A DNA stretch of 64,000 nt from Acutalibacteraceae bacterium (GTDB lineage Bacteria > Bacillota > Clostridia > Oscillospirales > Acutalibacteraceae). A model generated the notes under the pieces. That model had not been told where the DNA came from. It worked only from the letters and a program-made list of their open reading frames with translations, and did no database searches. Positions within the stretch are counted from its first letter, which is position 1, and each line of letters starts with the position of its first letter. A program made the position numbers and the translations under genes. The DNA lies in NCBI GenBank assembly GCA_045539955.1, contig JAZQGI010000011.1:16832-80831 (forward strand), read 5' to 3'. Of this stretch, positions 2,707-60,662 are shown in pieces.

Positions 2707-2723
2707 TCTCGTTATTTTATTTT

Positions 2724-5324
2724 TTAATCCTCTTCATCGTCGGGCGGTAAAATTTTAAAGCCACCCTCAAAACCGTTTTCAATTTTTGGGATAATAATCT
2801 CATCCATCCTGTCAAGAAGACTCTCACTCTTTTTAAGGTTTTCTTCAATCTGGGACTCCTGCTCTTGCTCAGCTTCGTTCCAGCTTTTAAGCAGAATTTC
2901 TCCTTCGGGATAAACATTTTTAGCGATATGCTTTTTACGGTACAAAAGAAAAGCGAGCATATAAGCCAGAAAAACAGCGCAGCTACTTGCAGTAACCAAC
3001 AGCCCTGTTTTTAAACCGGGTGTCATATAATTAAACCTTATTTCACTGGTACCCGCTGGCACTTTTACCGCCATAAACCCAACATTCACCTTTTCAATTT
3101 CGCAAGGTTGACCGTTTACTGTTGCCGTCCAACCCTCATCGTAAGGAATCGAAAAGAAAACAAGATTTTCCTTATCCCTTTTAACTGTCGCCGAAAAACC
3201 GTTTTTATCAGTTTCAAAATAAACTGCCGATGTTTCTCTCAATTTATCGCAGTCATAAACCATATCTTCGTAACCGAAATAAATACTTCTGCCCTCGTCA
3301 TCAGGAGCAGGATTTCTTAACATACCGTTAAAATCAGTTAAAAGATGACCGTATTTTTTAATTTGTTCATCAGTCAGAAGAATTGCCTTAAGCATAAGAT
3401 TTGCTCGGTTTTTACCTGAATAGCTTTCACAAAAATCCTCACTCATATAATACTGGTAAGAAAAACCGTAAGGTACAAAATTCTCATTTTCATAAACATA
3501 AAAACCGCTTTGGGTATCAAGATAGGTGTATCCTTGCATTTCGGTTTCCTTAGTTTCGGCATCAATAAAACTGTCACCATCAACCCGATTCAAAAGATAT
3601 TTAACCGAAAGAAGTGGGCGAATAGACTCATAATCAGTACCGGGTCGGCTTGCAACACTTCTCTCTACACCGATATACTCATAAAATTGCATTATTGAAT
3701 ACGGCACAACAGAATGAAAGGCATTTATACCGGAATACCCAAGATACATCGCCGTATTATCAACACAGTCATACGTGTCTATACGGAAACTGCTATCATC
3801 CTTAAAATCAACCTCGCCTTCAATAAGGCTGTCGATCATAACATCCTTAATTTCATAAGAATGTGAGCGTCCGCTGATAATAAACACATTGCCGTATATA
3901 ACAGAAATTATGCAAACACATACAACGCTTGTTGTGTAAAAAGATTTTATATTATTTTTTAAAATCTTCAAAAGGAAATAAAGAATAACAAGGCTTACTA
4001 TGGCAATAACACAGGCAACCGCAAATCTTATAACATAAGTTAAATCATCTGCCTGTGTGTAAAGTCCAAAGGTAATGTTTCCATCGTCATCTTTATTCGG
4101 GAAAAAGCCGATAACTGCCGAAATGGCAACGGTAATTCCTAAAACCCACTTAAATCCGTACGACCAATCGACAGTTTTATCTTCTGTAAGTATAACGGTC
4201 ATAAGGCACATAAGGAGTATCGGCATATAATACCAACGCGCATAATAGGCGGTATTAAAGGCATAAAACGCGCTGTTAAGTATGGGTATTAAAGCCATAA
4301 AAATGCAAACACCTATAATTCTTTTAAGCCAATTGCCGCCTTTGGTTTTAAACCAAGTAAAAACGCCCACCATGCTGAAAACAGGCAGCCAGCCCCCAAG
4401 CGAAGACCACTTAACCTCAGCTCCTGGGAAAAACACAGGACGGGCAGGAATATCTGGCGGAAAAAAGAAACACTGCAAAATATTGCCGTAAATCTGTTCC
4501 TTGCCGTACATAATCGCATTCCAGCCCACAAGAAATTCCGAAATGCGTGAATTCCCTGTAATTGCCATAACAGAAGGCAGAAGTATAACCGCAGAAAGCA
4601 AAAGCCCTAAAACCGCCTCGAAAACAATGACCAAAAATCTTGAAAATCTGGGTCTTATAGCACCTGAAAAGAGACGGACAAAGAAATAAATTATAGTAAA
4701 TACTACCATTCCAAAAAAGAAAAAGTAGTTTGAAACCGCACAAAGACAAACCGTCAACGCGAAAACAAATCGGCGGTTTTCAGTTATAAGCATTTCGAGT
4801 GCCAAAAGCAACAGCGGAAATAAAATTATCGCTTCGTGAAAATGGTTAAAAAAGATATTATAAACCGAAAAACCCGAAAATGCGTATAAAAGACCGCCAA
4901 GACGCGCCGCTTCAGGTGTTCTTGTAAAACGGCGAATATAAAAATAAGCCGTAAGTGCCGCACAGGCGAACTTTAAAATCAAAAGCGGACCCATAAGATA
5001 GGGTACTAAACTATTTGGAAAAGGAATTGTTAACCAGAAAAATGGGCTGCCTAAGAGATAAAAGCTATAAGAACCAATAAAATTTGCTCCCAAATCTGTC
5101 CCGAAATCCCAAAAAACATTTCCGTTTCTTATGGCTTCGTGACATTTCTGATAAAACGGAATCTGCTGAACATTAAAGTCACCGTAAAAAGTAAAATACC
5201 CCTCACTCAAAATCATATATGGCACAAAAAGACAGGCGGCCGTCAACAATGCCAATATAAATGTTGAAAGCGCCTTTTCTTTTTTGGGAATTAATGTTCT
5301 GATTTTCATATCGGAAAATCTCAT
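2724..5324 (-). CDS. yfhO: YfhO-family polytopic membrane protein (putative glycosyltransferase)
   Basis: 866-aa ORF with many TM helices in the first ~480 aa, a large extracytoplasmic domain and a C-terminal TM. N-terminal signature YFTFYGDFNVQQIPFY...GANFIGSYSFYLLGSPFFW is typical of YfhO. Confidence 0.75.
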   Translation of the reverse strand: MRFSDMKIRTLIPKKEKALSTFILALLTAACLFVPYMILSEGYFTFYGDFNVQQIPFYQKCHEAIRNGNVFWDFGTDLGANFIGSYSFYLLGSPFFWLTIPFPNSLVPYLMGPLLILKFACAALTAYFYIRRFTRTPEAARLGGLLYAFSGFSVYNIFFNHFHEAIILFPLLLLALEMLITENRRFVFALTVCLCAVSNYFFFFGMVVFTIIYFFVRLFSGAIRPRFSRFLVIVFEAVLGLLLSAVILLPSVMAITGNSRISEFLVGWNAIMYGKEQIYGNILQCFFFPPDIPARPVFFPGAEVKWSSLGGWLPVFSMVGVFTWFKTKGGNWLKRIIGVCIFMALIPILNSAFYAFNTAYYARWYYMPILLMCLMTVILTEDKTVDWSYGFKWVLGITVAISAVIGFFPNKDDDGNITFGLYTQADDLTYVIRFAVACVIAIVSLVILYFLLKILKNNIKSFYTTSVVCVCIISVIYGNVFIISGRSHSYEIKDVMIDSLIEGEVDFKDDSSFRIDTYDCVDNTAMYLGYSGINAFHSVVPYSIMQFYEYIGVERSVASRPGTDYESIRPLLSVKYLLNRVDGDSFIDAETKETEMQGYTYLDTQSGFYVYENENFVPYGFSYQYYMSEDFCESYSGKNRANLMLKAILLTDEQIKKYGHLLTDFNGMLRNPAPDDEGRSIYFGYEDMVYDCDKLRETSAVYFETDKNGFSATVKRDKENLVFFSIPYDEGWTATVNGQPCEIEKVNVGFMAVKVPAGTSEIRFNYMTPGLKTGLLVTASSCAVFLAYMLAFLLYRKKHIAKNVYPEGEILLKSWNEAEQEQESQIEENLKKSESLLDRMDEIIIPKIENGFEGGFKILPPDDEED

Positions 5325-9755: not shown

Positions 9756-10102
9756 GGGAGTGTAAAGGTTTCGACAGGGATTTAGAAGTATGGGAAGCGA
9801 GCAGCGGTGCGGAACCGCTATAAAATCCGCATAAAAAATTAACTAACAACAATAAAGTTGCTTTAGCTGCCTAATTAGGCGGCTCGTCGAACCTTAGAGT
9901 ACCACGGCTAAGGCAAGGCGTCGATTTAGTGGTGAACGTGAACAGCGGGTTGTTCCCCCTGCTGTCAGGAAATTAGGAACTACCAAGCAAAACAGTCGGT
10001 CGCTTGACGGTTTTGTAAGGGAATGTAAATTTGCGACTGCGCTCGGAGAGACCTATATGGAAAAATTTTTGGACAGGAGTTCGATTCTCCTCACTTCCAC
10101 CA
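9756..10102 (+). ncRNA. ssrA: tmRNA (ssrA)
   Basis: 5' GGGAGUG pairs with 3' CACUUCC before ACCA. A T-arm GGAGTTCGATTCTCC is present. The internal tag reading frame ends ...NNNKVALAA-TAA (gtt gct tta gct gcc taa at about 9858-9875). Located immediately downstream of smpB. Confidence 0.9.
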
Positions 10103-10142: not shown

Positions 10143-10169
10143 CAACGAAATAAATCCCTTGCGAGATTT

Positions 10170-10324
10170 GTGAAATACGCTTCGCGTGTGAAATATTGCT
10201 TTGCAATGTGAAATGCCTGTTGGCATGAGAGGATTTATTTTATTTCACTTGATGCGTCAGCATCAAATTTCACGATTTGCACAGTTAATTATTTCACATT
10301 TTGCTTAACAGCAAAATATTTCAC
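10170..10324. repeat. array of seven GTGAAAT heptamers (3 forward, 4 inverted) interleaved with short palindromes
   Basis: GTGAAAT at 10170, 10188 and 10208. ATTTCAC at 10242, 10267, 10291 and 10318. Most spacers are palindromic (ACGCttcGCGT, ATTGCtttGCAAT, TTGATGCgtcaGCATCAA, ATTTTGCttaacaGCAAAAT). Confidence 0.7.
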
Positions 10325-31908: not shown

Positions 31909-31940
31909 AAAATCCCGTTGCAATGCAACGGGATTTTTTT
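31909..31940. terminator. bidirectional terminator between copA and the aro operon
   Basis: ATCCCGTTGC-aat-GCAACGGGAT flanked by an A3 run and a T7 run. Confidence 0.8.
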
Positions 31941-32976
31941 ACAGCTTATCTGCAATATCTAAAATAAGTTTTTCTGTCTTTTCCCAACCAAGACACGGGT
32001 CGGTAATAGATTTGCCGAAGATATGCTCTTCTGCCTTGCAAGCGCCATCCTCAATATAGCTTTCAATCATAAGCCCTTTTACAAGACTCTTGATATCGTT
32101 ATTGTGGTTACGGCTGTGAATAACCTCTTTAGCAATGCGGACCTGTTCTAAATACTGTTTTCCTGAATTTGCGTGGTTGGTATCAACAATAACAGACGGA
32201 TTAGCCAAAGTTGTCTTTGAATAAAGCTCATTTAAAGCCACAAGGTCTTCATAATGATAGTTAGAAACATTTTTACCTGCAAAATCAACATATCCACGTA
32301 ATATAGCGTGAGTTAAAGGGTTGCCTGAGCTTTGCACTTCCCAACCGCGATAAAGGAACGTATGACTTGCTTGACCTGCTTTAATTGAGTTCATCATTAC
32401 GCTCAGGTCACCGCTTGTTGGGTTTTTCATACCTACAGGCTCATCTATACCACTGGCAGTAAGCCTGTGCTGTTGATTTTCGGCAGAACGTGCGCCTACT
32501 GCAACATACGCAAGTAAATCTGACAAATAACGGTGATTTTCAGGGTAAAGCATTTCATCCGCACAGGTAAAACCGTAGTCGCGAAGTGCAGACAAATGCA
32601 AATCACGGATAGAAACAATGCCCTTTAACATATCGGGAGCAGTTTCAGGGTCGGGTTGGTGGAGCATTCCCTTGTAGCCCTCACCTGTAGTACGCGGTTT
32701 ATTAGTATAAATACGCGGAACAATTATAATCTTATCCTTTACCTTATCTTCAACAAGACGTAAGCGAGAAATATATTCAAGCACAGGGTCTTTATGGTCA
32801 GCAGAGCACGGACCGATTACAAGAATGAACTTTTCCGATTCACCTGTAAATACTGCTTTGATTTCTTCCGCTCTTTTTTGCTTTACCTTTTCCATTTCGG
32901 CAGTCAATGGATATTGCTCCTTAATCTCCTTTGGAATAGGTAATTTTCTCTTAAAATTCATACTCATTTTCTTCAC
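31939..32976 (-). CDS. 3-deoxy-7-phosphoheptulonate (DAHP) synthase, class I AroF/G/H type
   Basis: 345 aa. ILVIGPCSADHKDPVLEY resembles the E. coli-type VIGPCSIHD motif. Last gene of the aro operon. Confidence 0.8.
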   Translation of the reverse strand: MKKMSMNFKRKLPIPKEIKEQYPLTAEMEKVKQKRAEEIKAVFTGESEKFILVIGPCSADHKDPVLEYISRLRLVEDKVKDKIIIVPRIYTNKPRTTGEGYKGMLHQPDPETAPDMLKGIVSIRDLHLSALRDYGFTCADEMLYPENHRYLSDLLAYVAVGARSAENQQHRLTASGIDEPVGMKNPTSGDLSVMMNSIKAGQASHTFLYRGWEVQSSGNPLTHAILRGYVDFAGKNVSNYHYEDLVALNELYSKTTLANPSVIVDTNHANSGKQYLEQVRIAKEVIHSRNHNNDIKSLVKGLMIESYIEDGACKAEEHIFGKSITDPCLGWEKTEKLILDIADKL

Positions 32977-33833
32977 ACTTTCTTATTGAATTCGCGGCGA
33001 CGCTTGGTGGAAAGCTTCATCATTTCACGCATACCCTGACGGTCGTCGTTGTTAATAAAATCATATAATTTATCGAATGTTTCGCGGTAAATATCCATTT
33101 GCTCCAATAAAACCTCTTTATTAGATAAAAACAGCTCACTCCACATCTCATCATTTATGTTAGCAATTCGGGTTAAATCTCTGAAAGAGTCGCCCGTGTA
33201 TTCCACTAAATCGGGGTCATCATTCGCGCACATAAGCGAAATTGCAATACAGTGTGTCAGCTGTGACAAAAACGCTATCATTCTATCGTGCTTTTCAACC
33301 GACAATACTGCCACTTTAGCAAAACCCAAAAGCTCACCCAAATTAGCACAAAGTTCTATTGCTTCTTTAGTATTTTTCTCGGTAGGCACAACCAAATAGT
33401 TTGCACCCTTGAAGATAGCATCGTCACTGTTTTCCACGCCCGAAACTTCTTTACCTGCCATTGGGTGTGCCGCGATGTATTCCACATCGCTGCGCAAAAT
33501 ACCTTGTATTTCGTCAACGATACAGCCCTTAACACCCGTAACATCAGTAATTACAGCACCGCTTTTAAAAAACTGCTGATTTTCTTTAACCCAACTCTTA
33601 AAAATATGCGGATAAAGCGCAAAAATAACCAAGTCCGCTTTGCCGATAATTTGCGGTTCAATCGCAGTTGTACCGTAATCAATTATGCCGTTATCTACAG
33701 CATAGTCTATTGAAGACTGGTCCTTTGTAATAGCGTTAACTTCAAAGCCTAATTTCTTAAGTCCTTTAGCATAACTACCGCCCAAAAGACCTAAGCCAAC
33801 AATCAATATATTTACCTTTTTAATAAGCTTCAT
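32973..33833 (-). CDS. tyrA: prephenate dehydrogenase
   Basis: 286 aa. N-terminal Rossmann VNILIVGLGLLGGS and HPMAG motif. Confidence 0.8.
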   Translation of the reverse strand: MKLIKKVNILIVGLGLLGGSYAKGLKKLGFEVNAITKDQSSIDYAVDNGIIDYGTTAIEPQIIGKADLVIFALYPHIFKSWVKENQQFFKSGAVITDVTGVKGCIVDEIQGILRSDVEYIAAHPMAGKEVSGVENSDDAIFKGANYLVVPTEKNTKEAIELCANLGELLGFAKVAVLSVEKHDRMIAFLSQLTHCIAISLMCANDDPDLVEYTGDSFRDLTRIANINDEMWSELFLSNKEVLLEQMDIYRETFDKLYDFINNDDRQGMREMMKLSTKRRREFNKKV

Positions 33834-35025
33834 TTATATCAAGACCTATACTTTTTAGTTTTTCATAAAAATCGGGATAGCTTTTTGATACCGCCTCAGC
33901 ACCCTCTATAACCCCACCCGTAAGGGTTAACAGTAAGGATAAAGCCATGGCTATTCTATGGTCGTTATGAGAACTCAAAACAGAGTTTGGTTTGTTTAAT
34001 TCTCCGCTTTTTATAATTACCGAATCATCAAAAACCTCTACAGCTATTCCGAATTTTTTAAGCTCTTGTTTCATAGCTTCAGCACGGTCACTTTCCTTAA
34101 TTTTAAGACGCTTTGTGCCTGTAAATTCTGCATCTCCTAAAACGGCAGATACAGCAAACAACACAGGTGCTAAGTCAGGACAATCGGACAAGTTAAACCG
34201 TCTTTGTCCATTTCTAAGAGCTTCGAAAATTTCTTTATAAACACGGTCGCCTTGCAGTGTTTGTGGATTTAAGCCTGTCACTTCTACTTTGCCGCCAAGA
34301 TAGTTTAATGCCTCTAAAAAAGCGGCGTTTGAGCAGTCACCCTCAACTGTGTAAACATTATTTCCGTAATATTGACCGCCGTTTATATAAAACACATCAG
34401 CCTTACGATCGATTTTAATGCCAAAGCTTTGCAAAGCCAAAAGAGTTAAATCAATGTAAGATGCACTCTCAAATTTTCCTGTAACAGTAAGCACACTATT
34501 ACAGGAAAGCAACGGCAATAGAAATAACAAACCGCTTATAAACTGACTTGAGATATCTCCTGCGACCTTGTATTCGCAACCTTTAAGATTACCGCAAACC
34601 TTTACGAAATCATCACCCTTTTGGAACAATATTCCCTGTTCTTTAGCGATATCCTCATAAATACCAAGCGGACGCTCAAAAAGTCGTTTTGCGCCTTTCA
34701 GTGTTACAGTTTTGCCGCAAGCCATACACAAGGGCAACAAAAACCTGAGAGTACTACCGCTCTCATTACAGTCAATTACCGTGTTATCAGGAACAGAAGA
34801 TAGTGTAAGTCCGCCCAAGGTTACTGTATCATCAACAATTTCCACACTTGCGCCAAGACATTTAAGGCAACCGATTGTTGCCTCAATATCCTTGGAATAA
34901 CCTATATTTTTAATAATACTTTTTTCGGATAAAGCGCCACAAATAAGCGCCCTGTGAGCCATACTTTTAGACGGCGGTGCCTTAACTTTACCCACCGCAG
35001 TTGACGGTTTAATTGTTACTGTCAT
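33820..35025 (-). CDS. aroA: 3-phosphoshikimate 1-carboxyvinyltransferase (EPSP synthase)
   Basis: PPSKSMAHRALI, NESGSTLRFL and DHRIAMA motifs. Start at ATG 35025 (MTVTIKPS). Confidence 0.9.
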   Translation of the reverse strand: MTVTIKPSTAVGKVKAPPSKSMAHRALICGALSEKSIIKNIGYSKDIEATIGCLKCLGASVEIVDDTVTLGGLTLSSVPDNTVIDCNESGSTLRFLLPLCMACGKTVTLKGAKRLFERPLGIYEDIAKEQGILFQKGDDFVKVCGNLKGCEYKVAGDISSQFISGLLFLLPLLSCNSVLTVTGKFESASYIDLTLLALQSFGIKIDRKADVFYINGGQYYGNNVYTVEGDCSNAAFLEALNYLGGKVEVTGLNPQTLQGDRVYKEIFEALRNGQRRFNLSDCPDLAPVLFAVSAVLGDAEFTGTKRLKIKESDRAEAMKQELKKFGIAVEVFDDSVIIKSGELNKPNSVLSSHNDHRIAMALSLLLTLTGGVIEGAEAVSKSYPDFYEKLKSIGLDINEAY

Positions 35026-35452
35026 TTTCGTTCTCCAAAAGCAAATCAATAGCCTTTATGTAGCCCTTAAACCCAAGTCCTGTAACAGTTTCAAAGCAAT
35101 ATTCTCTAACAAAACTTATCTGTCTGTAATCTTCTCTCTTTGAAACATCAGAAATATGAACTTCCACAGCAGGTATTCCAACCGCTTTTAAAGCATCAAG
35201 CAAAGCTACGCTTGTGTGAGTGTACGCTGCAGGATTTATAACAATACCGTTATATTCACCGTAGGCGTCCTGTATCTCATCAACCAAATCACCCTCGTGA
35301 TTGGACTGAAAAATTTCAACCTCTATACCTTTTTCTTTAGCATAATCCTCTATTAAATCACACAAATCCTTGTAGGTTGCGTTACCGTAAATTTCGGGCT
35401 CGCGAATACCCAGCATATTAAGATTAGGTCCGTTCAAAACCAAAATTTTCAT
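35009..35452 (-). CDS. aroQ: type II 3-dehydroquinate dehydratase
   Basis: MKILVLNGPNLNMLGIREPEIYG ... INPAAYTHTSVAL signature. 147 aa. Confidence 0.9.
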   Translation of the reverse strand: MKILVLNGPNLNMLGIREPEIYGNATYKDLCDLIEDYAKEKGIEVEIFQSNHEGDLVDEIQDAYGEYNGIVINPAAYTHTSVALLDALKAVGIPAVEVHISDVSKREDYRQISFVREYCFETVTGLGFKGYIKAIDLLLENENDSNN

Positions 35453-36681
35453 TTTAGGTAATCCTCCATAATGCTTTTTACGGCATCTTTTGGTGCCTTA
35501 TCGGAAATTATCCGTTTTTCACAACAATTACAGTAAATATTATAGCGTTCATTATATCTCTGTTTTAACATATCTCTATTTTGTGAAAGCGGTCGGTCTG
35601 CTGTCGCCTCCAACAATTCAAGCGGACGGTCAAGAAAATATATTTTGCCGTTAAGCTTTAATAAATCAATGTTTTCTTGACGAAGCACAGCTCCACCGCC
35701 TGTTGCTATAACCTTTCCTTGAAGCGAAGCCACACTTTTTATAACCTCGCTTTCAATATCTCGAAAACCGCTCTCGCCTTTTTCTTTAAATATGGCGGTT
35801 ATATCGCCGTATTGTTTAACAATTTCGTCGTCCGTATCTATAAATTCCAGCCCTAAATTTTGTGCCAAAAGCTTGCCAACAGTAGTTTTACCACTCGCCG
35901 GCATACCAACAAGCACAATGTTTTGCTTGTTTCTTAGAATTTCGTTATAAATACTGTCTATTTTTTCTGTGGGAATTTGTGAACCTGTAAACTTTTCAGC
36001 AGCAAAAACCGCCTGTCCCACAAGCATATAAAGCCCACCGCAAGCTATAATTCCTCGTTTTTTAGCTTGAAGCACAAGGTTTGAAGAAAGCGGGTTATAA
36101 ACCACATCAAATACACCCTCTAAATCGGGATAAACTGAAATATCAATAAGCTTTCCGTCAATATTAGGGAACATTCCCACAGGAGTTGTATTTATAATAA
36201 CCTGAGTATCGGACATTTCCAATGCCCGCTCGTAAGACACTGTCCCGTCAGATTGTTTTCTCGAAACTCGACTGACTTTTTCACAACCAAGTTCTTCTGC
36301 AACTGCGAGCGCAGTTTTAGATGTCGCACCGTCACCTAAAATCAAAACTTTCTTCCCTTTAATACTCACACCTGATTTTTCAATCATACATTTAAGACCT
36401 GAAAAATCAGTGTTATAGCCATAAAGCTTACCTCCGTTATTGACAATAACATTAACTCCACCGATTTTTTGTGCTACCTCACTTACAAAATCAAGATTCG
36501 GCATAACGGTCTGCTTATAAGGAATGGTAACATTTACCGCCTTAAAATTTCTATTTTGCAAAAAGCCGCAGACTTCGTCGGGTTTTAACTCTTTTAAATC
36601 GTATTTAAGACCGAAATATTTTGTATGTATTTCTTTTGAAAAGCTATGTCCTAACTTCTCGCCAATAAGACCAAATTCCAT
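35449..36681 (-). CDS. aroE/aroK: fused shikimate dehydrogenase / shikimate kinase
   Basis: N-terminal AroE (GLIGEKLGHSFSKEIH, NVTIPYK, GDGATS) joined to C-terminal AroK (GMPASGKTTVGKLLA...FIDTDD). 410 aa with no stop between the two parts. Confidence 0.85.
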   Translation of the reverse strand: MEFGLIGEKLGHSFSKEIHTKYFGLKYDLKELKPDEVCGFLQNRNFKAVNVTIPYKQTVMPNLDFVSEVAQKIGGVNVIVNNGGKLYGYNTDFSGLKCMIEKSGVSIKGKKVLILGDGATSKTALAVAEELGCEKVSRVSRKQSDGTVSYERALEMSDTQVIINTTPVGMFPNIDGKLIDISVYPDLEGVFDVVYNPLSSNLVLQAKKRGIIACGGLYMLVGQAVFAAEKFTGSQIPTEKIDSIYNEILRNKQNIVLVGMPASGKTTVGKLLAQNLGLEFIDTDDEIVKQYGDITAIFKEKGESGFRDIESEVIKSVASLQGKVIATGGGAVLRQENIDLLKLNGKIYFLDRPLELLEATADRPLSQNRDMLKQRYNERYNIYCNCCEKRIISDKAPKDAVKSIMEDYLK

Positions 36682-37772
36682 TATTCACTCAACCAATCTG
36701 TACCGTATCGTGTTATAAGCATATCCGCCAAAACAAGCGCTGTCACACTGTCAACCACCACTTTTGCACGGTGAACAATGCACGGGTCGTGCCTGCCTCT
36801 TGCTTCCAAAACAGCATCTTCTTTTGTCTTTATATTAACTGTATTCTGCGGTTTGGAAATTGTAGGGGTGGGACGGAAAGCTGTGCGGAAAATGATGGGC
36901 ATACCGTTAGTTATACCACCGTTTATTCCGCCCGAATTATTAGTATTTGTTACAATTTCACCGTTTTCTGTTTTAAAGCTGTCATTAGCAGAAGACCCAT
37001 TCATTTTAGCGATCTGAAAGCCTGCTCCAAATTCTACACCCTTTACTGCAGGAACCGCAAAAAGAGCGTGTGAAAGCATACTTTCGGCAGTATCAAACCA
37101 AGGTTCTCCAACACCCGCAGGCATTCCGATTACCGCAGTTTCTACAACACCGCCTACACTGTCACCCTCTGCCTTAGCGTTTTTTATAGCTTCAATCATT
37201 TTTTCGCCTATCCGGTCGTCCAAAACGGCGAATTCCTTATCTCTTAATATCTTAATTTCCGATAAAATATCCTGGAAGTCCTTATCAGCAATACCACCGC
37301 ATTCGCATATATGACTGCCAATATAAATCCCCTTTTTCTCAAGAGCGGGAATGATAATACCTGCAAGCGCCACAAGCGGTGCAGTAATTCTTCCGCTAAA
37401 ATGACCTCCGCCCCGATAATCCTGAAAACCCTGATATTTACATTCAGCTGTAAAGTCAGCATGAGAAGGTCTTGCTAAATCCTTTGTGGAAGAATAATCT
37501 TTTGAGCGTGTGTCCCCGTTTTTTATCACAATACAAAGAGGTGTACCTGTAGTTTTACCCTCAAAAACACCGCTTAAAATTTCAAAGCAATCCTCTTCTC
37601 TTCTCGGGGTTGAAATCGCATTTAAGCCTTTTCGAAGTCTTAACATATTATTTATTATCTCAGTATCAACCGTAAGACCGGGGGTAATACCGTCAAGCAC
37701 AGCTCCGATAGCTGGTCCGTGGCTTTCGCCAAAAAGAGTAACTGTTAAGTTATTACCAAAGGTGTTTTTCAT
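36681..37772 (-). CDS. aroC: chorismate synthase
   Basis: FGESHGPAIG, RPSHAD and GRHDPC motifs. 363 aa. Confidence 0.9.
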   Translation of the reverse strand: MKNTFGNNLTVTLFGESHGPAIGAVLDGITPGLTVDTEIINNMLRLRKGLNAISTPRREEDCFEILSGVFEGKTTGTPLCIVIKNGDTRSKDYSSTKDLARPSHADFTAECKYQGFQDYRGGGHFSGRITAPLVALAGIIIPALEKKGIYIGSHICECGGIADKDFQDILSEIKILRDKEFAVLDDRIGEKMIEAIKNAKAEGDSVGGVVETAVIGMPAGVGEPWFDTAESMLSHALFAVPAVKGVEFGAGFQIAKMNGSSANDSFKTENGEIVTNTNNSGGINGGITNGMPIIFRTAFRPTPTISKPQNTVNIKTKEDAVLEARGRHDPCIVHRAKVVVDSVTALVLADMLITRYGTDWLSE

Positions 37773-38824
37773 TTTAAAGCCACACTCCTTATAAGGTCTG
37801 AAAATTCCGCAAAAGACAAATTTTTCATTTCAAAGGTTCCGATTTCGCCAACAGTCACAACGGTAATTTTATCTCCAAAAGCCTTTTTATCGTGCTTGCA
37901 AGCTTCGATAAGCTCTTGTGCGCTTTCTTCTAAAGCTGTCGGTAAATTGAGCTTTTTAAGCACTGGCAAAAGCTTTTCTTTTACATTTTTGCTACACATC
38001 GGTATCATACCGATTGCTACACATTCACCGTGATAATATTTTTCCATATCGTTTATACTTTCAACCGCGTGAGCTAAAGTATGCCCGAAGTTTAAAACCT
38101 TTCTAAGTCCGCTTTCACGCTCGTCTTCTTCTACAATATATTTCTTTATAAGCAAAGAGCGGTAGATTATATCATCTAAGACTGCGTTGTCATTCAAATC
38201 TCCGTTTTCGAAAATGGAAAACAGTTCTCTGTCACAGGTAAGCGACATTTTAAGCGCCTCACAAAGACCGTTAGAAATCTGCCTTTGCGGTAGAGTTTTT
38301 AAGGTTTCAGGGTCAATAATAACCTTTTTAGGCGGATAAAACGCACCTACAATATTTTTATAGCCCATAAAATCAACCGCCGTTTTACCGCCAATAGAAG
38401 AATCCACCTGAGAAAGCACGGTTGTCGGAATATTATAAAAATTAATGCCGCGCATAAATGTCGCCGCCGCAAATCCCGAAAGATCTCCAACAACTCCGCC
38501 GCCAACGGCTACAACGCAGTCGGTACGGGTGAAATTATTCTCTAACATAGTTTTTAGTAAGAGTGACCAAGTATCAATTTGCTTTGAATGTTCTCCCTGA
38601 GGTATTGTTAAAATAACAGGCTCTTTGCAAGCGTTTGCTACTGCCTGCGCATAAGAGCTTGGAACACCGTCATCAGTAACAATAAGCACTTTGCGTTCAA
38701 GATTTAAAAGCTTTCCTGCATTTTTTATTGCACCGCGCTCTAATACGATTTTATATTCACCGATTGATGTTTTTACGTTTATTTCCAAACCAATTCTCCT
38801 ATTTAATAAGAATTTCTTTTTCAA
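37769..38824 (-). CDS. aroB: 3-dehydroquinate synthase
   Basis: GGGVVGDLSGFAAATFMRG, NFGHTLAHA and HGECVAIG motifs. 351 aa. Confidence 0.9.
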   Translation of the reverse strand: MKKKFLLNRRIGLEINVKTSIGEYKIVLERGAIKNAGKLLNLERKVLIVTDDGVPSSYAQAVANACKEPVILTIPQGEHSKQIDTWSLLLKTMLENNFTRTDCVVAVGGGVVGDLSGFAAATFMRGINFYNIPTTVLSQVDSSIGGKTAVDFMGYKNIVGAFYPPKKVIIDPETLKTLPQRQISNGLCEALKMSLTCDRELFSIFENGDLNDNAVLDDIIYRSLLIKKYIVEEDERESGLRKVLNFGHTLAHAVESINDMEKYYHGECVAIGMIPMCSKNVKEKLLPVLKKLNLPTALEESAQELIEACKHDKKAFGDKITVVTVGEIGTFEMKNLSFAEFSDLIRSVALK

Positions 38825-39890
38825 AATATCCTAATATCTTAAGGTTATTACAGCATTTGCGCAGGTCTTTAAGCATTAATTTTGCTTCCTTGCTATTGAT
38901 ATCACCCTCACCCTCGGCAAAGAAGTAATAATCCCACACAAGTTCCTTTGTCGGACGGCTTTTAAGAGCCTTAAGATTAAATCCGTGCTGACCTATTACT
39001 GTAATTGCTTCACCTAATGAACCAGCCGCGTTTTTAACTGTAAACAGCATCACAAAATGCTTATCATTAGGGCTTGCCGGCTTTTGAGCGCGGGTGAAAA
39101 CCGCAAAGCGAGTAGTATTTGTGCCGCTTTCGTTAATATGTCCTTCTATCTTCTCAAGACCGAATTTTTTAGCCGCTTCCACACTTCCGATTGCCGCAAT
39201 ATCGGTTCTGCCGCTTTCGGCAACCATTTTTGCCGCAACCGCTGTATTTACAACATCGGTTGTTTTATAACCATTTTCACTGATAAACTCAGCGCATTGA
39301 CCAAGTGCTTGCGGATGGCTTATTACCTCCTTAATACTTGTGAGTGTAGCGCCTTTATTACCCAAAAGATTTTGAATTACTTCAATTTCATATACACCGC
39401 TTATAAATAACTGGCCGAAAAATGCCAAATCAAGCACTTGTCCGACATCACCGTTATGGCTATTTTCAATAGGTAATACCGCACAATCACATTCGCCTGT
39501 TAATACTGAGTTATATGCCGCCTTAAAATCTTTATATCCCACGGCCTTTGCATCAGGAAAAATCTTCTCGCTCGCAATATTTGCAAATGCACCCTCAACA
39601 CCGCTGTATGCAACACGCATCCCGTCAAGTAATTTATGCTGTAATTTTTTAGAAAGGTCAATATTGCCCTGTAAAAAATTTATGTAATAAGAACGGTATT
39701 CTTCATTTTCTATATAATTTGTATTACGGGCTATAATCTCTGCTTCACGGACAAAATCATCAATAGGCAAACCGTTTTGTTTTTTGAAATCAGCAACTAT
39801 CTTTGCTGCATCCATTCTCTTTTCAAAAAGACGCGCCATTTCCTTATCAGTTTCATTGATAATTTGTCTTGCTTTTTCAAGTTCTGTCAA
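38799..39890 (-). CDS. pheA: bifunctional chorismate mutase / prephenate dehydratase (P-protein)
   Basis: N-terminal CM helix (LEKARQIINETDKEMARLFEKR), PDT domain (ENSHNGDV, TRF) and an ACT-like C-terminus. Start set at TTG 39890 (AGGAG 7 nt upstream). The longer track ORF reads through the leader. Confidence 0.8.
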   Translation of the reverse strand: MTELEKARQIINETDKEMARLFEKRMDAAKIVADFKKQNGLPIDDFVREAEIIARNTNYIENEEYRSYYINFLQGNIDLSKKLQHKLLDGMRVAYSGVEGAFANIASEKIFPDAKAVGYKDFKAAYNSVLTGECDCAVLPIENSHNGDVGQVLDLAFFGQLFISGVYEIEVIQNLLGNKGATLTSIKEVISHPQALGQCAEFISENGYKTTDVVNTAVAAKMVAESGRTDIAAIGSVEAAKKFGLEKIEGHINESGTNTTRFAVFTRAQKPASPNDKHFVMLFTVKNAAGSLGEAITVIGQHGFNLKALKSRPTKELVWDYYFFAEGEGDINSKEAKLMLKDLRKCCNNLKILGYFEKEILIK

Positions 39891-39920
39891 AACCTTCACT
39901 CCTAAAATATAAGTCAAATA

Positions 39921-39966
39921 AAAAAACCGCACCCTACTATGCCAATTTCGGCACAAGCAGTTGCGG
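39921..39966 (-). terminator. leader (attenuator) terminator upstream of pheA
   Basis: Minus sense: CCGCA-a-CTGCT-tg-TGCC gaaatt GGCA-t-AGTAG-gg-TGCGG followed by T7. Lies about 30 nt before the pheA SD. Confidence 0.65.
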
Positions 39967-39993
39967 ACTGTCCGTTTTACCTTATGCCGAAAA

Positions 39994-40062
39994 CTATCGG
40001 CAAACTGTGGTGAACGGGCAGTCCTCTTTAAAGTAATAAAAGTAAAAATTCTTCTTGAACAT
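39994..40062 (-). CDS. 22-codon Phe/Tyr-rich leader peptide MFKKNFYFYYFKEDCPFTTVCR
   Basis: Not in the ORF track. ATG 40062 with GAGGTG SD 7 nt upstream, TAG at 39996-39994. 8 of 22 residues are aromatic, including the run FYFYYF. Confidence 0.6.
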   Translation of the reverse strand: MFKKNFYFYYFKEDCPFTTVCR

Positions 40063-40096
40063 TCCGTTTCACCTCTCAAAACTCATTATATTAGAT

Positions 40097-40125
40097 ATTT
40101 TATCGCAACTTTTAATGCTTGTCAA
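40097..40125 (-). promoter_or_regulatory. sigmaA promoter of the aromatic super-operon (TTGACA-17-TAAAAT)
   Basis: Minus sense: -35 at 40125-40120, -10 at 40102-40097. Confidence 0.6.
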
Positions 40126-40183
40126 GTATTTTTTGCTTTAAAGCGCTAAAATATTTTATCCCCTTCTTTTGAAGGGGATAAAT

Positions 40184-42268
40184 TTAGATTTTAAATAATA
40201 AATCGCCGTATGTAGGATATGGCCAATAATTGCTTGGAACCACACTTTCTGCGCTATCAGCATATTTGCGGATATCCGCCATAAGCGTCAGAATATTGTT
40301 GCGGTATTCACATGCTTTTTCAAAAGCGTCCACAGAACGCTCTGCAGAGGCTACCGCATTTTTCAGTTGTGCTGTAAGTGAGAAAATTTCCTTATTTGCA
40401 GCTGTGAGCCTTGTTATAAGCTCATATTCCACACTGCTGTCAGCACGCAAAAGATTCTTATTATTAACCGCTTCGCAAAGCGTATTTGTGTAAGCGGTAA
40501 TAGCAGGAATAACATCCCTGTTCATCATTGTAATAAGCGTCAATGCCTCAATATGTATAATTTTAGCATAGTTTTCAAGAATAATATCCACACGTGATTC
40601 AATTTCGGCGCGGTTAAATACACCGTGACGCTCAAAAAGTGCAATATTTTCTTCTGTTTTGAGCAGCGGTAAAGCATCAACTGTACTCGGAAGGTTTAAA
40701 AGACCACGCTTTTGTGCTTCTTCTTCCCATTCCTTAGAATAACCGTCACCGTTGAAAATAATTCTCTTGTGATTTTTAATGCAATCTTTAACAATACTGT
40801 CAACTTCTGCTTCGGCATTTTCTGCCTTTTCAAGCCTTTCAGCATAACTGGCGAAAACATCTGCAACCATAGTGTTAAGCATAACATTCGTATCAGAGAT
40901 TGAAGAAGCCGAGCCTAACATACGGAACTCGAATTTATTGCCTGTAAAAGCAAAAGGAGAAGTGCGGTTTCTATCGGCATTATCCTTTTTAAATTCAGGT
41001 ATAACATCAGCGCCCATTTTCATTTTTTCGCGCTTTACATCATCATGATGAATGCCTTTAACTATAGCTTCAAGCATATCGGTTAAATCTTCGCCCAAAA
41101 AAATCGAAATAATTGCAGGCGGCGCTTCGTTACCGCCAAGTCTATGGTCATTACCTGCCGTTGCAACTGCAATTCTTAATAAATCCTGATGCTTATCAAC
41201 TGCTTCAATAACAGCAGCAAGTGTTATTAAAAACAACTTGTTTTCAGACGGATTTTTGCCAGCCTTTAAAAAGTTTACGCCCGTATCGGTTGAAATTGAC
41301 CAGTTGTTATGCTTACCGCTTCCGTTAACACCATCATAGGGCTTTTCGTGTAAAAGACATACTAAGCCCTTTGAAAGCGCGGTTTTCTTCATAAACTCCA
41401 TTGTAAGTTGGTTATGGTCAGCAGCGATATTTGTAGTTGTAAATATCGGTGCTAACTCGTGTTGAGCGGGAGCCGCCTCGTTATGCTCAGTTTTAGCAAG
41501 CACGCCCAACTTCCAAAGCTCATTATCCAATTCGCGCATGAACTCAGCTACGCGCGGTTTCAACACACCGAAATAATGGTCATCCATTTCCTGTCCCTTA
41601 GGCGGCATAGCGCCTATAAGGGTTCTTCCGCAGAAAATAAGGTCAGGACGCTTGTCGTAAAGCTCCTTGTCAACAAGAAAATATTCCTGTTCAGGACCGA
41701 CTGTTGTACTTGTGCGCTTAACATCATTAAAGCCAAGTGCTTTTACCACACGTAAAGCCTGTTTATTTATAGCCTCCATACTGCGAAGCAAGGGGGTTTT
41801 CTGGTCAAGAGCCTCCCCACTGAATGAGCAAAAAGCAGTAGGGATACAAAGTGTTTTGTCCTTTATAAAAGCATAAGAGCTTGGATCCCAAGCGGTATAT
41901 CCGCGCGCTTCGAAAGTAGCGCGAAGTCCGCCTGAGGGGAAGGACGAAGCATCAGGCTCACCTTTAATAAGCTCTTTGCCTGAAAACTCCATTAAGATAT
42001 GACCGTCGTCTGTTGGGGTTATAAAGCTGTCATGCTTTTCGGCAGTAATGCCTGTTAAGGGTTGGAACCAATGGGTATAATGAGTGGCGCCCTTTTCTAT
42101 AGCCCACTCTTTCATAGCCTCAGCCACAGTATCAGCGATACTGCTGTCAAGACTTTTTCCCTCTTTGATTGTACTTTTTAAGATTTCATAGGTTTCCTTC
42201 GGCAAACGCTCTTTCATAACCGAGTCGCCAAAAACATTTATGCCGAAAAATTCATTAACCTTAGCCAC
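40184..42268 (-). CDS. glnN: type III glutamine synthetase
   Basis: About 694 aa, the GSIII size class. N-terminal FG.NVF...M...LPK..Y pattern and a conserved catalytic core ([10 protein letters not shown]). Start placed at the second GTG (42268). Confidence 0.85.
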
Positions 42269-42338
42269 AAGCACTAACCCTCAACTTTCAATAAATTTAA
42301 CATAGTATGTACTAAAAAACAAAATTTGGAGTGTTTTT

Positions 42339-60539: not shown

Positions 60540-60662
60540 ATGTGTAATAATAATGGTTGTACTTGGATTATCATCTTAATCCTCATCCTCTTCTGCTGCG
60601 GCGGTTGGGGCGGCAATAACTGCGGTAACAACTGCGGTTGCGACAATGGTTGCGGTTGCTAA
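60540..60662 (+). CDS. 40-aa Cys/Gly/Asn-rich small membrane protein MCNNNGCTWIIILILILFCCGGWGGNNCGNNCGCDNGCGC
   Basis: Not in the ORF track. ATG 60540 with AAGGAGG SD 8 nt upstream. A central 12-residue hydrophobic stretch is flanked by C/G/N repeats. Followed by a strong terminator. A possible TTGTAA-17-CATAGT promoter lies at 60478-60507. Confidence 0.6.
   Translation: MCNNNGCTWIIILILILFCCGGWGGNNCGNNCGCDNGCGC

What the first reader, a model, noticed from the sequence alone, without database searches (positions are those of the whole stretch)
39921..40125. Phe/Tyr-rich leader peptide and alternative hairpins upstream of an 8-gene aromatic super-operon: candidate ribosome-mediated attenuator in a Firmicute
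- A ~200-nt leader lies between a good promoter (TTGACA-17-TAAAAT) and pheA.
- It encodes MFKKNFYFYYFKEDCPFTTVCR, with a GAGGTG SD 7 nt before the ATG at 40062.
- 8 of 22 residues are Phe or Tyr, including the run FYFYYF.
- Just after the run, GGACTGCCCGTT (still coding) pairs 11/12 with AACGGACAGTCC downstream.
- The stop codon lies in the 5' arm of a TGCCGA/TCGGCA hairpin.
- The 3' arm of that hairpin (TTTCGGCA) is also complementary to TGCCGAAA at the tip of the final U7-tailed hairpin (39921-39966).
- Mutually exclusive structures therefore exist.
- The operon makes the whole common pathway plus both Phe (pheA) and Tyr (tyrA), which matches the codon content.
- Leader-peptide attenuation is textbook for enterobacterial pheA/trp/his. 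Firmicute aromatic operons are normally described as T-box or TRAP controlled, so this would be an unusual mechanism for the lineage.
- I could not derive the exact switching logic by eye.
Basis: partly seen in the sequence, partly recalled or inferred. Interest (0 to 1): 0.65.

Follow-up and report, generated by a model that had tools for sequence, protein, structure and literature searches.

The report
Phe/Tyr leader-peptide attenuator of aromatic operon
A 22-codon mini-gene packed with Phe and Tyr codons, followed by competing RNA hairpins and a terminator, sits in front of an 8-gene aromatic amino-acid operon of an uncultured rumen Clostridia bacterium; it is conserved in about 30 related species and most likely switches the operon on when Phe or Tyr runs short, a known kind of switch in a lineage where it is rarely described.

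Summary
On the minus strand, a sigma-70-type promoter, an SD-preceded 22-codon ORF (MFKKNFYFYYFKEDCPFTTVCR), nested hairpins and a U7 terminator precede pheA-aroB-aroC-aroE/K-aroQ-aroA-tyrA-aroF.

- **Known RNAs excluded.** No T-box, TRAP array or any Rfam family matches.
- **Conservation.** The same leader occurs in 32 leaders from Oscillospirales genomes and metagenomes. It follows the operon start, whichever gene is first (pheA, an aminotransferase or DAHP synthase).
- **Coding signature.** ORF length varies only in multiples of three. The Phe/Tyr run is kept while other residues drift.
- **Structures.** Two helices covary:
  - region 1 : region 2. It encloses the stop codon and overlaps the first 2-4 bases of the terminator.
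- the mini-ORF's own SD region: region 1.
It is 12 bp here but is not conserved beyond close relatives.

I read this as a ribosome-mediated Phe/Tyr transcription attenuator (about 0.8). Its likely logic differs from the textbook one: the region 1:2 helix acts as antiterminator by taking the terminator's basal pairs, and SD:region 1 is the default competitor (about 0.5).

Precedents exist (C. glutamicum aroR, Acholeplasma uORFC-13-1, Firmicute His and Leu leaders). This is therefore a new member of a known kind. No expression data were available.

The parts
40155..40182 (-). Intrinsic terminator of the upstream gene (40184-42274, probably a type III glutamine synthetase). It shows that the leader starts its own transcription unit.
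   Evidence: 12-bp stem followed by a T run; weak GlnA-domain hit for the 696-aa protein
40097..40125 (-). Sigma-70-type promoter: TTGACA, 17-nt spacer, TAAAAT. The transcription start is inferred near 40090.
   Evidence: 11/12 matches; both hexamers are conserved in the close relatives L002-L013
40064..40075 (-). SD (GAGGUG, 40075-40070) and 'region 0' (GGUGAAACGG, 40073-40064). Region 0 is complementary to CCGUUCACC in region 1, so the pairing sequesters the mini-ORF's SD.
   Evidence: helix present in 13 of 15 lineage representatives; covariation 0.327 against 0.189 in shuffles
39994..40062 (-). Leader mini-ORF, 22 codons plus TAG: MFKKNFYFYYFKEDCPFTTVCR.
   Evidence: conserved with SD and frame in 32 leaders
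40030..40047 (-). Regulatory run of Phe/Tyr codons: UUU UAC UUU UAU UAC UUU (codons 6-11). There is also a conserved Phe at codon 2 (40059-40057).
   Evidence: F at codon 2 in 26 of 32 leaders; no Trp codons in any
40009..40024 (-). Region 1 (GGACUGCCCGUUCACC), starting 5 nt after the run. Its 5' part pairs with region 2 and its 3' part pairs with region 0. This RNA constraint explains the conserved peptide motif D/G-C-P-F-T.
39985..40002 (-). Small hairpin h (UGCCGA / UCGGCA) inside the loop of the region 1:2 helix. The stop codon TAG (39996-39994) forms its first loop bases.
   Evidence: the stop codon lies inside the 1:2 loop in all 32 leaders
39965..39976 (-). Region 2 (AACGGACAGUCC), the 3' strand of the region 1:2 helix. 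Its last two C (39966-39965) are also the first two bases of the terminator stem.
   Evidence: covariation; RNAalifold consensus; overlap with the terminator
39920..39966 (-). Leader terminator: interrupted hairpin CCGCA-A-CUGCU-U-GUGCCG/AAAU/UGGCAU-AGUAG-GG-UGCGG (39966-39927) followed by U7 (39926-39920).
   Evidence: -20.7 kcal/mol; an equivalent hairpin plus U tract exists in all 32 leaders
39946..39992 (-). It is 12 bp and specific to this lineage.
31939..39903 (-). Regulated operon. SD AGGAG is at 39903-39899. Gene order: pheA (chorismate mutase/prephenate dehydratase, TTG start at 39890) - aroB - aroC - aroE/aroK fusion - aroQ - aroA - tyrA - DAHP synthase. All junctions overlap or abut.

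Best explanation
The element is a ribosome-mediated (leader-peptide) transcription attenuator. It couples transcription of the whole Phe/Tyr branch of aromatic biosynthesis to the supply of charged tRNA-Phe and tRNA-Tyr.

**Shown**
- The anatomy: promoter, translatable mini-ORF, terminator.
- Conservation of that anatomy across related species.
- Two covarying, mutually exclusive helices around region 1.

**Inferred switching logic (the version I favour, about 0.5)**
- Region 1 lies 5 nt after the F/Y run. It can pair upstream with the mini-ORF's own SD region (0:1) or downstream with region 2 (1:2).
- Region 2 shares its last 2-4 bases with the base of the terminator stem.
- *Phe/Tyr short.* The lead ribosome stalls on the run (codons 6-9/10) or on the conserved Phe codon 2.
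  - It sits between or on region 0, so 0:1 cannot form, while region 1 stays outside the ribosome.
  - 1:2 forms and holds the CC that the terminator needs for its last base pairs next to the U tract.
  - The hairpin is left incomplete and polymerase reads on into pheA.
- *Phe/Tyr plentiful.* The ribosome runs through region 1 to the stop codon, which always lies inside the 1:2 loop.
  - 1:2 cannot form, the terminator closes fully and transcription stops.
- *No translation.* 0:1 forms first, frees region 2 and hides the SD, which gives default termination.

The confidence of 0.8 applies to ribosome-mediated Phe/Tyr attenuation in general.
For: **Anatomy and context**
- Promoter, SD, ORF, hairpins and U7 terminator are all present.
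- The operon makes the common pathway plus pheA and tyrA but no trp genes, and no leader has a Trp codon.

**Known alternatives excluded**
- No Rfam family matches, including T-box and Phe or Leu leaders.
- No TRAP triplet array and no T-box core motif.

**Conservation as a translated element**
- 32 orthologous leaders keep SD, start codon and F/Y run.
- Their length differs only by whole codons: start-to-region-1 distance is 38/41/44/47 nt, or 42/45 nt in L022-L027.
- The leader moves with the operon start. It lies upstream of an aminotransferase in L019-27 and L029, and upstream of DAHP synthase in L050 and probably L095.

**Helices**
- 1:2 helix: 95% of cells paired, 4 pairs and 16 cells with changes on both sides, 0 of 500 shuffles as high, slid controls at most half. 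RNAalifold recovers it independently.
- 0:1 helix: cognate -17.0 against non-cognate -12.7 kcal/mol. Empirical p <= 0.018 in 13 of 15 lineage representatives. 3 pairs and 11 cells with changes on both sides, 1 of 500 shuffles as high.
- The same kind of pairing occurs in the divergent F/Y leaders L036 and L040.

**Geometry**
- The stop codon lies inside the 1:2 loop in 32 of 32 leaders.
- The gap between the run and region 1 is mostly 5 nt.
- The 1:2 helix overlaps the terminator by 2-4 nt in most leaders; the range is 1-8 nt.

**Thermodynamic model**
- With a ribosome stalled in the run, the two basal terminator pairs have P = 0.01-0.16.
- With a ribosome at the stop codon, they have P mostly >= 0.9. 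This holds in 15 of 19 lineage representatives.
Against: - There is no expression, Term-seq or genetic evidence. No RNA run holds the window, and wastewater RNA contigs for a relative were too sparse to read.
- The proposed antiterminator removes only 2-4 bases of the terminator. The rest of the hairpin stays folded (P about 0.99). Whether this abolishes termination rests on general knowledge of intrinsic terminators and was not tested here.
- In L022, L025 and L028 the model predicts little or no loss of the basal pairs.
- For the window's lineage, the untranslated RNA at equilibrium prefers 1:2 over 0:1. The 'default off' state therefore depends on folding order.
- A ribosome stalled on the last run codon (F11) would cover the first bases of region 1. 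In the model this restores the terminator.
- The sequences are related, so shuffle-based covariation statistics are optimistic.
- L050b, the second leader of a tandem pair, lacks a convincing 0:1 helix.
Confidence: 0.8

Rival explanations
1. Same class of element, but with the textbook logic the first reader had in mind.
- The region 1:2 helix, with hairpin h inside it, is an anti-antiterminator.
- A ribosome stalled at the end of the F/Y run masks region 1 and releases the 3' arm of h (UUUCGGCAUAAG).
- That arm pairs with the terminator 5' arm (CUUGUGCCGAAA) and blocks the terminator.
- A ribosome at the stop codon covers the arm, so the terminator forms.
For: - The 12-bp complementarity is real: -18.4 kcal/mol, with 0.7% of shuffles as good.
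- It becomes the minimum-energy fold when the ribosome footprint covers region 1 (A site at codons 12-13 and 18-20).
- It is present in the close relatives L001, L002 and L005, and more weakly in L162, L007 and L010.
- In L011, the base changes in hairpin h and in the terminator arm are mutually compatible.
Against: - No pair changes on both sides within the close group, and 260 of 500 shuffles score as high.
- The pairing shrinks to 4-6 bp in L009 and L011-L013. It is at background level in L015, L018, L019, L029, L021, L022-28, L050 and L095, although these keep the ORF, the 1:2 helix and the terminator.
- Only ribosomes on the last one or two of the six run codons would reach region 1. This follows from the conserved 5-nt spacer and from the coordinates.
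- The model gives no role to the conserved 0:1 helix, to the 1:2/terminator overlap or to the conserved Phe at codon 2.
Confidence: 0.25
2. The leader is a conditional terminator controlled by something other than the translating ribosome. Candidates are uncharged tRNA (a diverged T-box), a Phe/Tyr-binding RNA or an RNA-binding protein. The F/Y-rich ORF would then be incidental to a U/A-rich sequence.
For: - T-box and TRAP control is the commonly described mode for Firmicute aromatic genes.
- Diverged T-boxes can escape Rfam models (PMC5314783).
- The leader is strongly structured, with z = -4.0.
Against: - No Rfam hit even at E<=10, and none in 15 relatives.
- No T-box core motif and no (G/U)AG array.
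- The leader is about 170 nt and has no specifier-loop-like domain.
- SD, start codon, reading frame (indels only in whole codons) and F/Y identity are conserved, while the alternative Leu-rich frame is not.
- The stop codon position relative to the helices is invariant.
Confidence: 0.06
3. The hairpins act mainly on translation or mRNA fate rather than on transcription. For example, the SD:region 1 helix only limits mini-ORF translation. The 'terminator' would then be a constitutive, leaky terminator or a stabilising 5' structure, with aromatic control exerted elsewhere (enzyme feedback or a protein repressor).
For: - The 0:1 helix directly occludes the mini-ORF's SD.
- Relatives without the leader (L037, L038) carry a palindrome after the promoter, which suggests protein repression is used in this group.
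- The overlap between the antiterminator and the terminator is small.
Against: - A GC-rich hairpin followed by a U tract lies about 30 nt upstream of the first gene in all 32 leaders.
- It is coupled to a codon run for exactly the operon's end products.
- The leader is duplicated in tandem in L050. This is hard to explain without conditional termination.
Confidence: 0.06

Closest known systems
Escherichia coli pheA attenuator (pheL leader peptide; Rfam Phe_leader)
   Same: - A short SD-preceded ORF rich in Phe codons lies upstream of the chorismate mutase/prephenate dehydratase gene.
- It is followed by an intrinsic terminator and alternative hairpins.
- It senses charged tRNA through ribosome stalling (established knowledge; summarised in PMC11802643).
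   Different: - There is no sequence or structure homology: no Rfam match at E<=10.
- The run mixes Phe and Tyr codons.
- The run lies before region 1, separated by a conserved 5-nt spacer, rather than inside it.
- The leader controls eight genes, including the whole common pathway and tyrA.
- It has a conserved helix that sequesters the leader SD.
- The candidate antiterminator overlaps the terminator by only 2-4 bases.
Corynebacterium glutamicum aroR leader upstream of the aroF operon (Neshat et al. 2014, as described in PMC11802643)
   Same: - The leader peptide has a Phe-Tyr-Phe motif and controls aromatic biosynthesis genes by ribosome stalling.
- It is the closest functional precedent for mixed Phe/Tyr regulatory codons.
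   Different: - It is in Actinobacteria and the sequence is unrelated.
- It has only three regulatory codons, against six in the run here plus a conserved Phe at codon 2.
- It is reported to respond to Phe but not Tyr.
- The operon content differs.
uORFC-13-1 motif upstream of aroF in Acholeplasma (PMC8632094)
   Same: - It is a predicted uORF with Phe codons, promoter, RBS and an adjacent terminator, in front of an aromatic pathway gene.
- Its host lineage is related to Firmicutes.
- An extra conserved base-paired element of unknown role is noted there too.
   Different: - It has a different sequence family and host range.
- It precedes only aroF.
- It carries a U run coding for at least one Phe rather than an F/Y run.
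- Homology could not be tested here, because no model or sequence of that motif was available.
Leader-peptide attenuators predicted in Firmicutes: His leaders in the B. cereus group, Peptostreptococcaceae and Erysipelotrichales (PMC2965389, PMC9413887), and the Leu leader of Streptococcus leuA (PMC5314783)
   Same: - The regulatory principle is the same, in the same phylum.
- They likewise replace the more usual T-box.
- They were found by comparative genomics and mostly lack experimental proof.
   Different: - They sense different amino acids and regulate different operons.
- The RNAs are unrelated.
- None was reported for aromatic operons or for Oscillospirales in the papers I could search.
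T-box riboswitch
   Same: It has the same physiological input (tRNA charging) and the same output (terminator against antiterminator) in Firmicute amino-acid operons.
   Different: Nothing in the leader matches the T-box model or its core motif. The sensor here is a translated ORF.
RBS sequestration in the E. coli trp leader transcript (my own recollection of work from the Yanofsky laboratory; not checked in a paper here)
   Same: The leader peptide's ribosome-binding site pairs with a distal leader segment, which limits leader translation.
   Different: Here the partner of the SD is the same segment that forms the candidate antiterminator. The SD helix is therefore built into the switch itself.

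Membership tests
Ribosome-mediated (leader-peptide) transcription attenuator | A short ORF with its own SD and start codon lies between the promoter and the first structural gene | tested here: met
   GAGGUG, 7 nt, then ATG; 22 codons. SD and start codon are conserved in 32 leaders: 25 AUG, 4 UUG, 3 GUG.
Ribosome-mediated (leader-peptide) transcription attenuator | A cluster of codons for the amino acid(s) made by the regulated operon | tested here: met
   FYFYYF run; 6-10 F/Y residues per peptide in all 32 leaders; no Trp codons. The operon encodes pheA and tyrA but no trp genes.
Ribosome-mediated (leader-peptide) transcription attenuator | An intrinsic terminator lies between the ORF and the first gene | tested here: met
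   Hairpin of -20.7 kcal/mol plus U7 at 39966-39920. An equivalent structure (-13 to -24 kcal/mol plus a U tract) occurs in all 32 leaders.
Ribosome-mediated (leader-peptide) transcription attenuator | Mutually exclusive alternative pairings, one of which prevents the terminator | tested here: inconclusive
   0:1 against 1:2 is clearly exclusive and both covary. 1:2 against the terminator share only 2-4 bases; the model predicts loss of the two basal pairs only. The larger antiterminator is specific to this lineage.
Ribosome-mediated (leader-peptide) transcription attenuator | The ribosome's position (stalled at the regulatory codons or at the stop codon) selects between the structures | tested here: met
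   Geometry only. The run ends 5 nt before region 1 and the stop codon lies inside the 1:2 loop in 32 of 32 leaders. Masked-fold models give different terminator states.
Ribosome-mediated (leader-peptide) transcription attenuator | Read-through rises on starvation for the cognate amino acid and depends on leader translation | not testable with these tools
   No RNA run holds the window. RNA-derived contigs for relative L020 were uninformative.
T-box riboswitch (RF00230) | Match to the T-box covariance model; a specifier loop and the conserved T-box sequence in the antiterminator bulge | tested here: not met
   No hit at the gathering threshold or at E<=10; none in 15 relatives; no UGGNACC core.
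TRAP-regulated leader (Bacillus trp type) | An array of 9-11 (G/U)AG triplets spaced by 2-3 nt | tested here: not met
   There is not even a chain of two such triplets at that spacing in the leader.
Rfam amino-acid leader families (Phe_leader, leu/phe leader, His/Trp/Thr/Leu leaders) | Significant covariance-model match | tested here: not met
   None is among the 10 weak matches listed at E<=10. All of those lie upstream of the mini-ORF (about 40100-40243, over the promoter and the upstream gene's terminator) and are far below their gathering scores.

The most novel reading that the evidence does not exclude
The family is a distinct attenuator architecture in which the leader ORF's own ribosome-binding site is one arm of the switch.
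- The SD region and region 2 compete for the same segment placed just outside a ribosome stalled on the F/Y run.
- The antiterminator works by withholding only the 2-4 nucleotides that complete the terminator stem next to the U tract.
- This would leave a pause-like hairpin, so polymerase waits at the U tract until the ribosome either arrives (termination) or fails to arrive (read-through).
- The same SD : post-run pairing in the divergent F/Y leaders L036 and L040 would make this a general design rule for Clostridia leader peptides.
Probability: 0.3. Interest if true: 0.6.

Novelty: new member of a known kind. Interest (0 to 1): 0.42.

Why it matters
- **A further class of control in this phylum.** Aromatic operons of Clostridia-class gut bacteria can be controlled by translated Phe/Tyr leader peptides rather than T-boxes or TRAP. 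This adds a well-conserved RNA family, absent from Rfam, to the short list of leader-peptide attenuators in Firmicutes.
- **Annotation.** The 18-26-codon ORFs should be called leader peptides, not hypothetical proteins. The operon start in rumen and gut Oscillospirales MAGs can be placed at the leader.
- **A testable mechanism.** If the proposed logic holds (an SD-containing competitor helix and an antiterminator that steals only the terminator's basal pairs), the family gives a compact natural system for two questions:
  - how few base pairs decide intrinsic termination;
  - how leader translation is synchronised with transcription.
- **Possible use.** It could serve as a Phe/Tyr-responsive part for engineering anaerobes.

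Tried and rejected
- **Metagenome scan.** Only L050 (two copies), L095 and L162 were real.
- **RNA evidence.** No RNA run holds the window. DNA runs come from ruminant-gut and manure metagenomes. RNA-type wastewater runs for relative L020 gave a few 151-nt contigs with no interpretable ends.
- **Fixed-column pair counting of the 0:1 helix on alignment A1.** This failed because the register differs between lineages: a bulged A in the window's group, and shifts of up to 4 nt elsewhere. I replaced it with energy-based tests and with a sub-alignment of one register.
- **Search for a region 2: terminator 5'-arm antiterminator of the classical 2:3 type.** Only a 4-bp CAGU:ACUG match was seen by eye in the sequences, and it is not conserved. 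Rejected.
- **Scan of the 64-kb window for further leader-peptide-like mini-ORFs** (runs of F/Y, W, H, L, I/V, T and others). Nothing convincing turned up. The core motif occurs once in the window.
- **Leu-rich alternative frame.** The frame over the same U-rich stretch (EVKRNVQEEFLLLLL, 40075-40031) has no SD and is not conserved in relatives. Rejected.
- **Literature.** The paper on the role of the terminator hairpin (PMC41053) is not held. The claim that basal stem pairs are decisive therefore rests on my own knowledge.
Full report
**1. What is there**

All features lie on the minus strand.
- The upstream gene (40184-42274) ends with its own terminator at 40182-40155.
- A promoter follows: TTGACA (40125-40120), 17 nt, TAAAAT (40102-40097), 11 of 12 consensus positions.
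- GAGGUG (40075-40070) lies 7 nt before an ATG at 40062. The ORF 40062..39994 reads MFKKNFYFYYFKEDCPFTTVCR.
- The minimum-energy fold of the roughly 185-nt leader has three elements:
  - a long helix, GGACUGCCCGUU (40024-40013) with AACGGACAGUCC (39976-39965);
  - a small hairpin inside it, UGCCGA/UCGGCA, whose loop begins with the stop codon;
  - an interrupted terminator hairpin (39966-39927) followed by U7 (39926-39920).
- The fold energy is -54.1 kcal/mol, z = -4.0, and none of 200 shuffles folds as well.
- pheA starts with TTG at 39890, behind AGGAG.

**2. The regulated genes**

NCBIfam assigns the eight overlapping or abutting genes (39890 down to 31939) as follows:
1. chorismate mutase/prephenate dehydratase
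2. 3-dehydroquinate synthase
3. chorismate synthase
4. a shikimate dehydrogenase/shikimate kinase fusion
5. type II dehydroquinase
6. EPSP synthase
7. prephenate dehydrogenase
8. a DAHP synthase

The operon therefore makes Phe and Tyr from central metabolites. It contains no Trp-branch gene, which matches a leader with Phe and Tyr codons and no Trp codon.

**3. Known RNA regulators are excluded**

- Rfam 15 finds only a tmRNA and a Gut-1 RNA elsewhere in the window.
- An E<=10 search of 39800-40250 gives only weak matches to unrelated families. These lie over the promoter and the upstream gene's terminator.
- Fifteen related loci contain no Rfam family at all.
- The leader has no (G/U)AG triplet array and no T-box core.

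**4. Comparative evidence that the mini-ORF is a translated regulatory element**

- A protein-guided scan of one genome per species gave 42 loci, mostly Acutalibacteraceae/Oscillospirales MAGs. Their PheA identity to the window runs from 90% down to 31%. The window itself is held only by ruminant-gut and manure metagenomes.
- An SD-preceded ORF of 18-26 codons with a dense F/Y run is present in 28 of the sequences examined, counting the window. Four more leaders come from metagenome contigs.
- Residues outside the run drift (MFKKN.., MFFNN.., MFGFVFSYR.., MKKFKCN..). The run stays, with Phe/Tyr swaps and synonymous changes.
- The distance from the start codon to region 1 takes only the values 38, 41, 44 and 47 nt. 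In the L022-27 subgroup, which has a 1-nt insertion, it is 42 or 45 nt. Length changes therefore come in whole codons.
- The Leu-rich alternative frame seen in the window is not conserved.
- The leader follows the operon start rather than pheA:
  - Where an aminotransferase gene precedes pheA (L019-27, L029), the leader lies upstream of the aminotransferase.
  - In L050 it precedes a DAHP synthase-pheA pair and is present twice in tandem. L095 has a similar ORF layout, which was not annotated.
- Relatives L030-35, L036 and L040/41 have other F/Y-rich leader ORFs. L037-39 and L042 have none.

**5. Conserved RNA structure**

*(a) Region 1:2 helix.* On the 28-sequence alignment A1:
- 95% of cells are paired.
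- 4 pairs and 16 cells change on both sides (for example C-G to U-A in 8 sequences, and A-U / G-U / G-C at one pair).
- The covariation score is 0.214 against 0.147 in shuffles, with 0 of 500 shuffles as high. Slid controls reach at most 0.105.
- RNAalifold recovers the helix on its own.

- This explains why the peptide motif C-P-F-T is conserved.
- Every lineage has such a duplex, from -11.7 to -23.5 kcal/mol, although sequence and register differ.
- Cognate pairs average -17.0 kcal/mol against -12.7 for non-cognate pairs.
- Against natural 24-nt windows from the same locus, the duplex is in the top 0.2-1.8% in 13 of 15 lineage representatives.
- On a sub-alignment with one register, 90% of cells are paired. 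3 pairs and 11 cells change on both sides, and 1 of 500 shuffles is as high.
- A clean example: GGCGAACAGA:UCUGUUUGCC in L022/25 against GGUGAACAGA:UCUGUUUACC in L024/27.
- The divergent leaders L036 and L040 also pair their initiation region with the segment after the run (-23.5 and -18.9 kcal/mol; p = 0.003 and 0.023).

*(c) Geometry*:
- The stop codon lies inside the 1:2 loop in all 32 leaders, usually in or beside a small and otherwise variable hairpin.
- Region 1 starts mostly 5 nt after the last run codon.
- The 3' end of the 1:2 helix overlaps the first bases of the terminator stem, mostly by 2-4 nt (range 1-8 nt). These are CC here and CCC in L022-27.

*(d) Terminator.* Hairpins of -13 to -24 kcal/mol followed by a U tract are present in all leaders, although their upper parts differ.

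**6.

- UUUCGGCAUAAG (39992-39981) against CUUGUGCCGAAA (39957-39946) is a real 12-bp duplex: -18.4 kcal/mol, with 0.7% of shuffles as good.
- It becomes the best fold when a ribosome footprint covers region 1.
- Within the 15 close relatives, no pair changes on both sides, and 260 of 500 shuffles score as high.
- It shrinks to 4-6 bp in L009 and L011-13. It is at background level in L015, L018, L019, L029, L021-28, L050 and L095.
- I conclude that it is at most a lineage-specific addition and not the switch of the family.

**7. How it most likely works**

*Shown:* the parts, their conservation, and the mutual exclusivity of 0:1 against 1:2.

*Inferred:* the logic below.
- Region 1 starts 11 nt downstream of the first P-site base when the A site is on F11. 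It starts 14 nt downstream for Y10 and 17-26 nt downstream for Y9 back to F6 (from the coordinates).
- A ribosome stalled on most run codons therefore leaves region 1 free. It sits in the loop that 0:1 would have to close.
- A ribosome stalled on the conserved Phe codon 2 (present in 26 of 32 leaders) covers region 0 itself.
- In folds of the RNA 3' of such a stalled ribosome, the 1:2 helix forms in every lineage, at -17 to -35 kcal/mol.
- In that state the two terminator base pairs next to the U tract drop to P = 0.01-0.16, while the rest of the hairpin persists.
- With the ribosome at the stop codon, the two basal pairs have P mostly >= 0.9. This holds in 15 of 19 lineage representatives; the exceptions are L020, L022, L025 and L028.
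- From established knowledge of intrinsic termination, closure of the last stem pairs adjacent to the U tract is the step that releases the transcript. A hairpin ending 2-3 nt further upstream resembles a pause hairpin.
- I therefore propose that 1:2 is the antiterminator, that 0:1 is the default competitor which also shuts off the SD, and that a terminating ribosome inside the 1:2 loop allows termination.
- The idea that polymerase pauses at the U tract until the ribosome resolves 1:2 is speculation.

*Weak points:*
- The overlap is small.
- In the window's lineage the untranslated RNA prefers 1:2 at equilibrium.
- A stall on the last codon would restore the terminator in the model. There the lineage-specific 12-bp pairing could take over.
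- Nothing has been measured.

**8. Comparison with what is known**

- The element works like the enterobacterial pheA, trp and his attenuators. It is not a member of any Rfam leader family.
- Functional precedents:
  - C. glutamicum aroR, a Phe-Tyr-Phe leader upstream of aroF that responds to Phe (PMC11802643, citing Neshat 2014).
  - The predicted uORFC-13-1 motif upstream of aroF in Acholeplasma (PMC8632094).
  - Firmicute His and Leu leaders (PMC2965389, PMC9413887, PMC5314783).
- Naville and Gautheret still regarded leader peptides in Firmicutes as a notable finding in 2010 (PMC2965389).
- In five full-text searches I found no description of a Phe/Tyr leader in Oscillospirales or other Clostridia. 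The library does not cover subscription journals.

**9. Verdict**

- The finding is real and is very probably a ribosome-mediated Phe/Tyr attenuator. It is conserved as a family across Oscillospirales gut bacteria.
- It is a new member of a known kind. A variant architecture is possible but unproven.
- Interest is moderate. A specialist would not be surprised by the principle, but would value three things:
  - the clean comparative support;
  - the SD-containing competitor helix;
  - the minimal-overlap antiterminator as a testable hypothesis.

Noticed in passing
L050:1520-1900 (+): Two complete copies of the same leader type lie in tandem in front of a DAHP synthase-pheA pair. Each has an SD, an F/Y-rich ORF (MFVNKFSYYFYYFAKGCPTFVKSEI and MTFNKFFYYFYYFDKGCPQIEFKR), a 1:2 helix and a terminator. 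The second copy lacks a convincing SD:region 1 helix.
   Followed up: partly
L030-L035, about 330 nt upstream of pheA (locus coordinates about 2670-3000): A different leader type. A long open frame (50-80 codons between stops) has a very dense F/Y stretch, for example FRFFYYYYF or FCFYYFYYF. A terminator-like hairpin plus U7 lies inside the frame, and a separate terminator precedes pheA. The true start codon is unclear.
   Followed up: partly
L040/L041, about 180 nt upstream of pheA: A third leader type, MIGYVRFYYYYRAVRHSARA. Its SD region pairs with the segment right after the Tyr run. It is followed by what look like two successive terminator hairpins.
   Followed up: partly
L037 and L038, last 100 nt before pheA (locus coordinates about 2900-3000): These relatives have no leader ORF. 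They carry a strong promoter followed by a palindrome, GTTAACAGTGTTAAC or GTTAACACTGTTAAC. It looks like an operator for a protein repressor, so control of this operon differs between neighbouring lineages.
   Followed up: no
window 9756-10102 (+) and 10143-10219 (+): A tmRNA gene (151.8 bits) is immediately followed by a Gut-1 RNA (72.9 bits).
   Followed up: no
window 60540-60662 (+): A small SD-preceded ORF encodes a Cys/Gly/Asn-rich peptide with a hydrophobic core (MCNNNGCTWIIILILILFCCGGWGGNNCGNNCGCDNGCGC). A T run lies 35 nt downstream.
   Followed up: no
window 40184-42274 (-): The 696-aa protein upstream of the leader gives only a weak partial hit to the GlnA family, far below the cut-off. 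Its size suggests a type III glutamine synthetase.
   Followed up: no
window 40031-40075 (-): The U-rich F/Y run read in another frame gives EVKRNVQEEFLLLLL followed by a stop. This Leu run has no SD and is not conserved in relatives, so it is a by-product of the UUU/UAU codons.
   Followed up: yes
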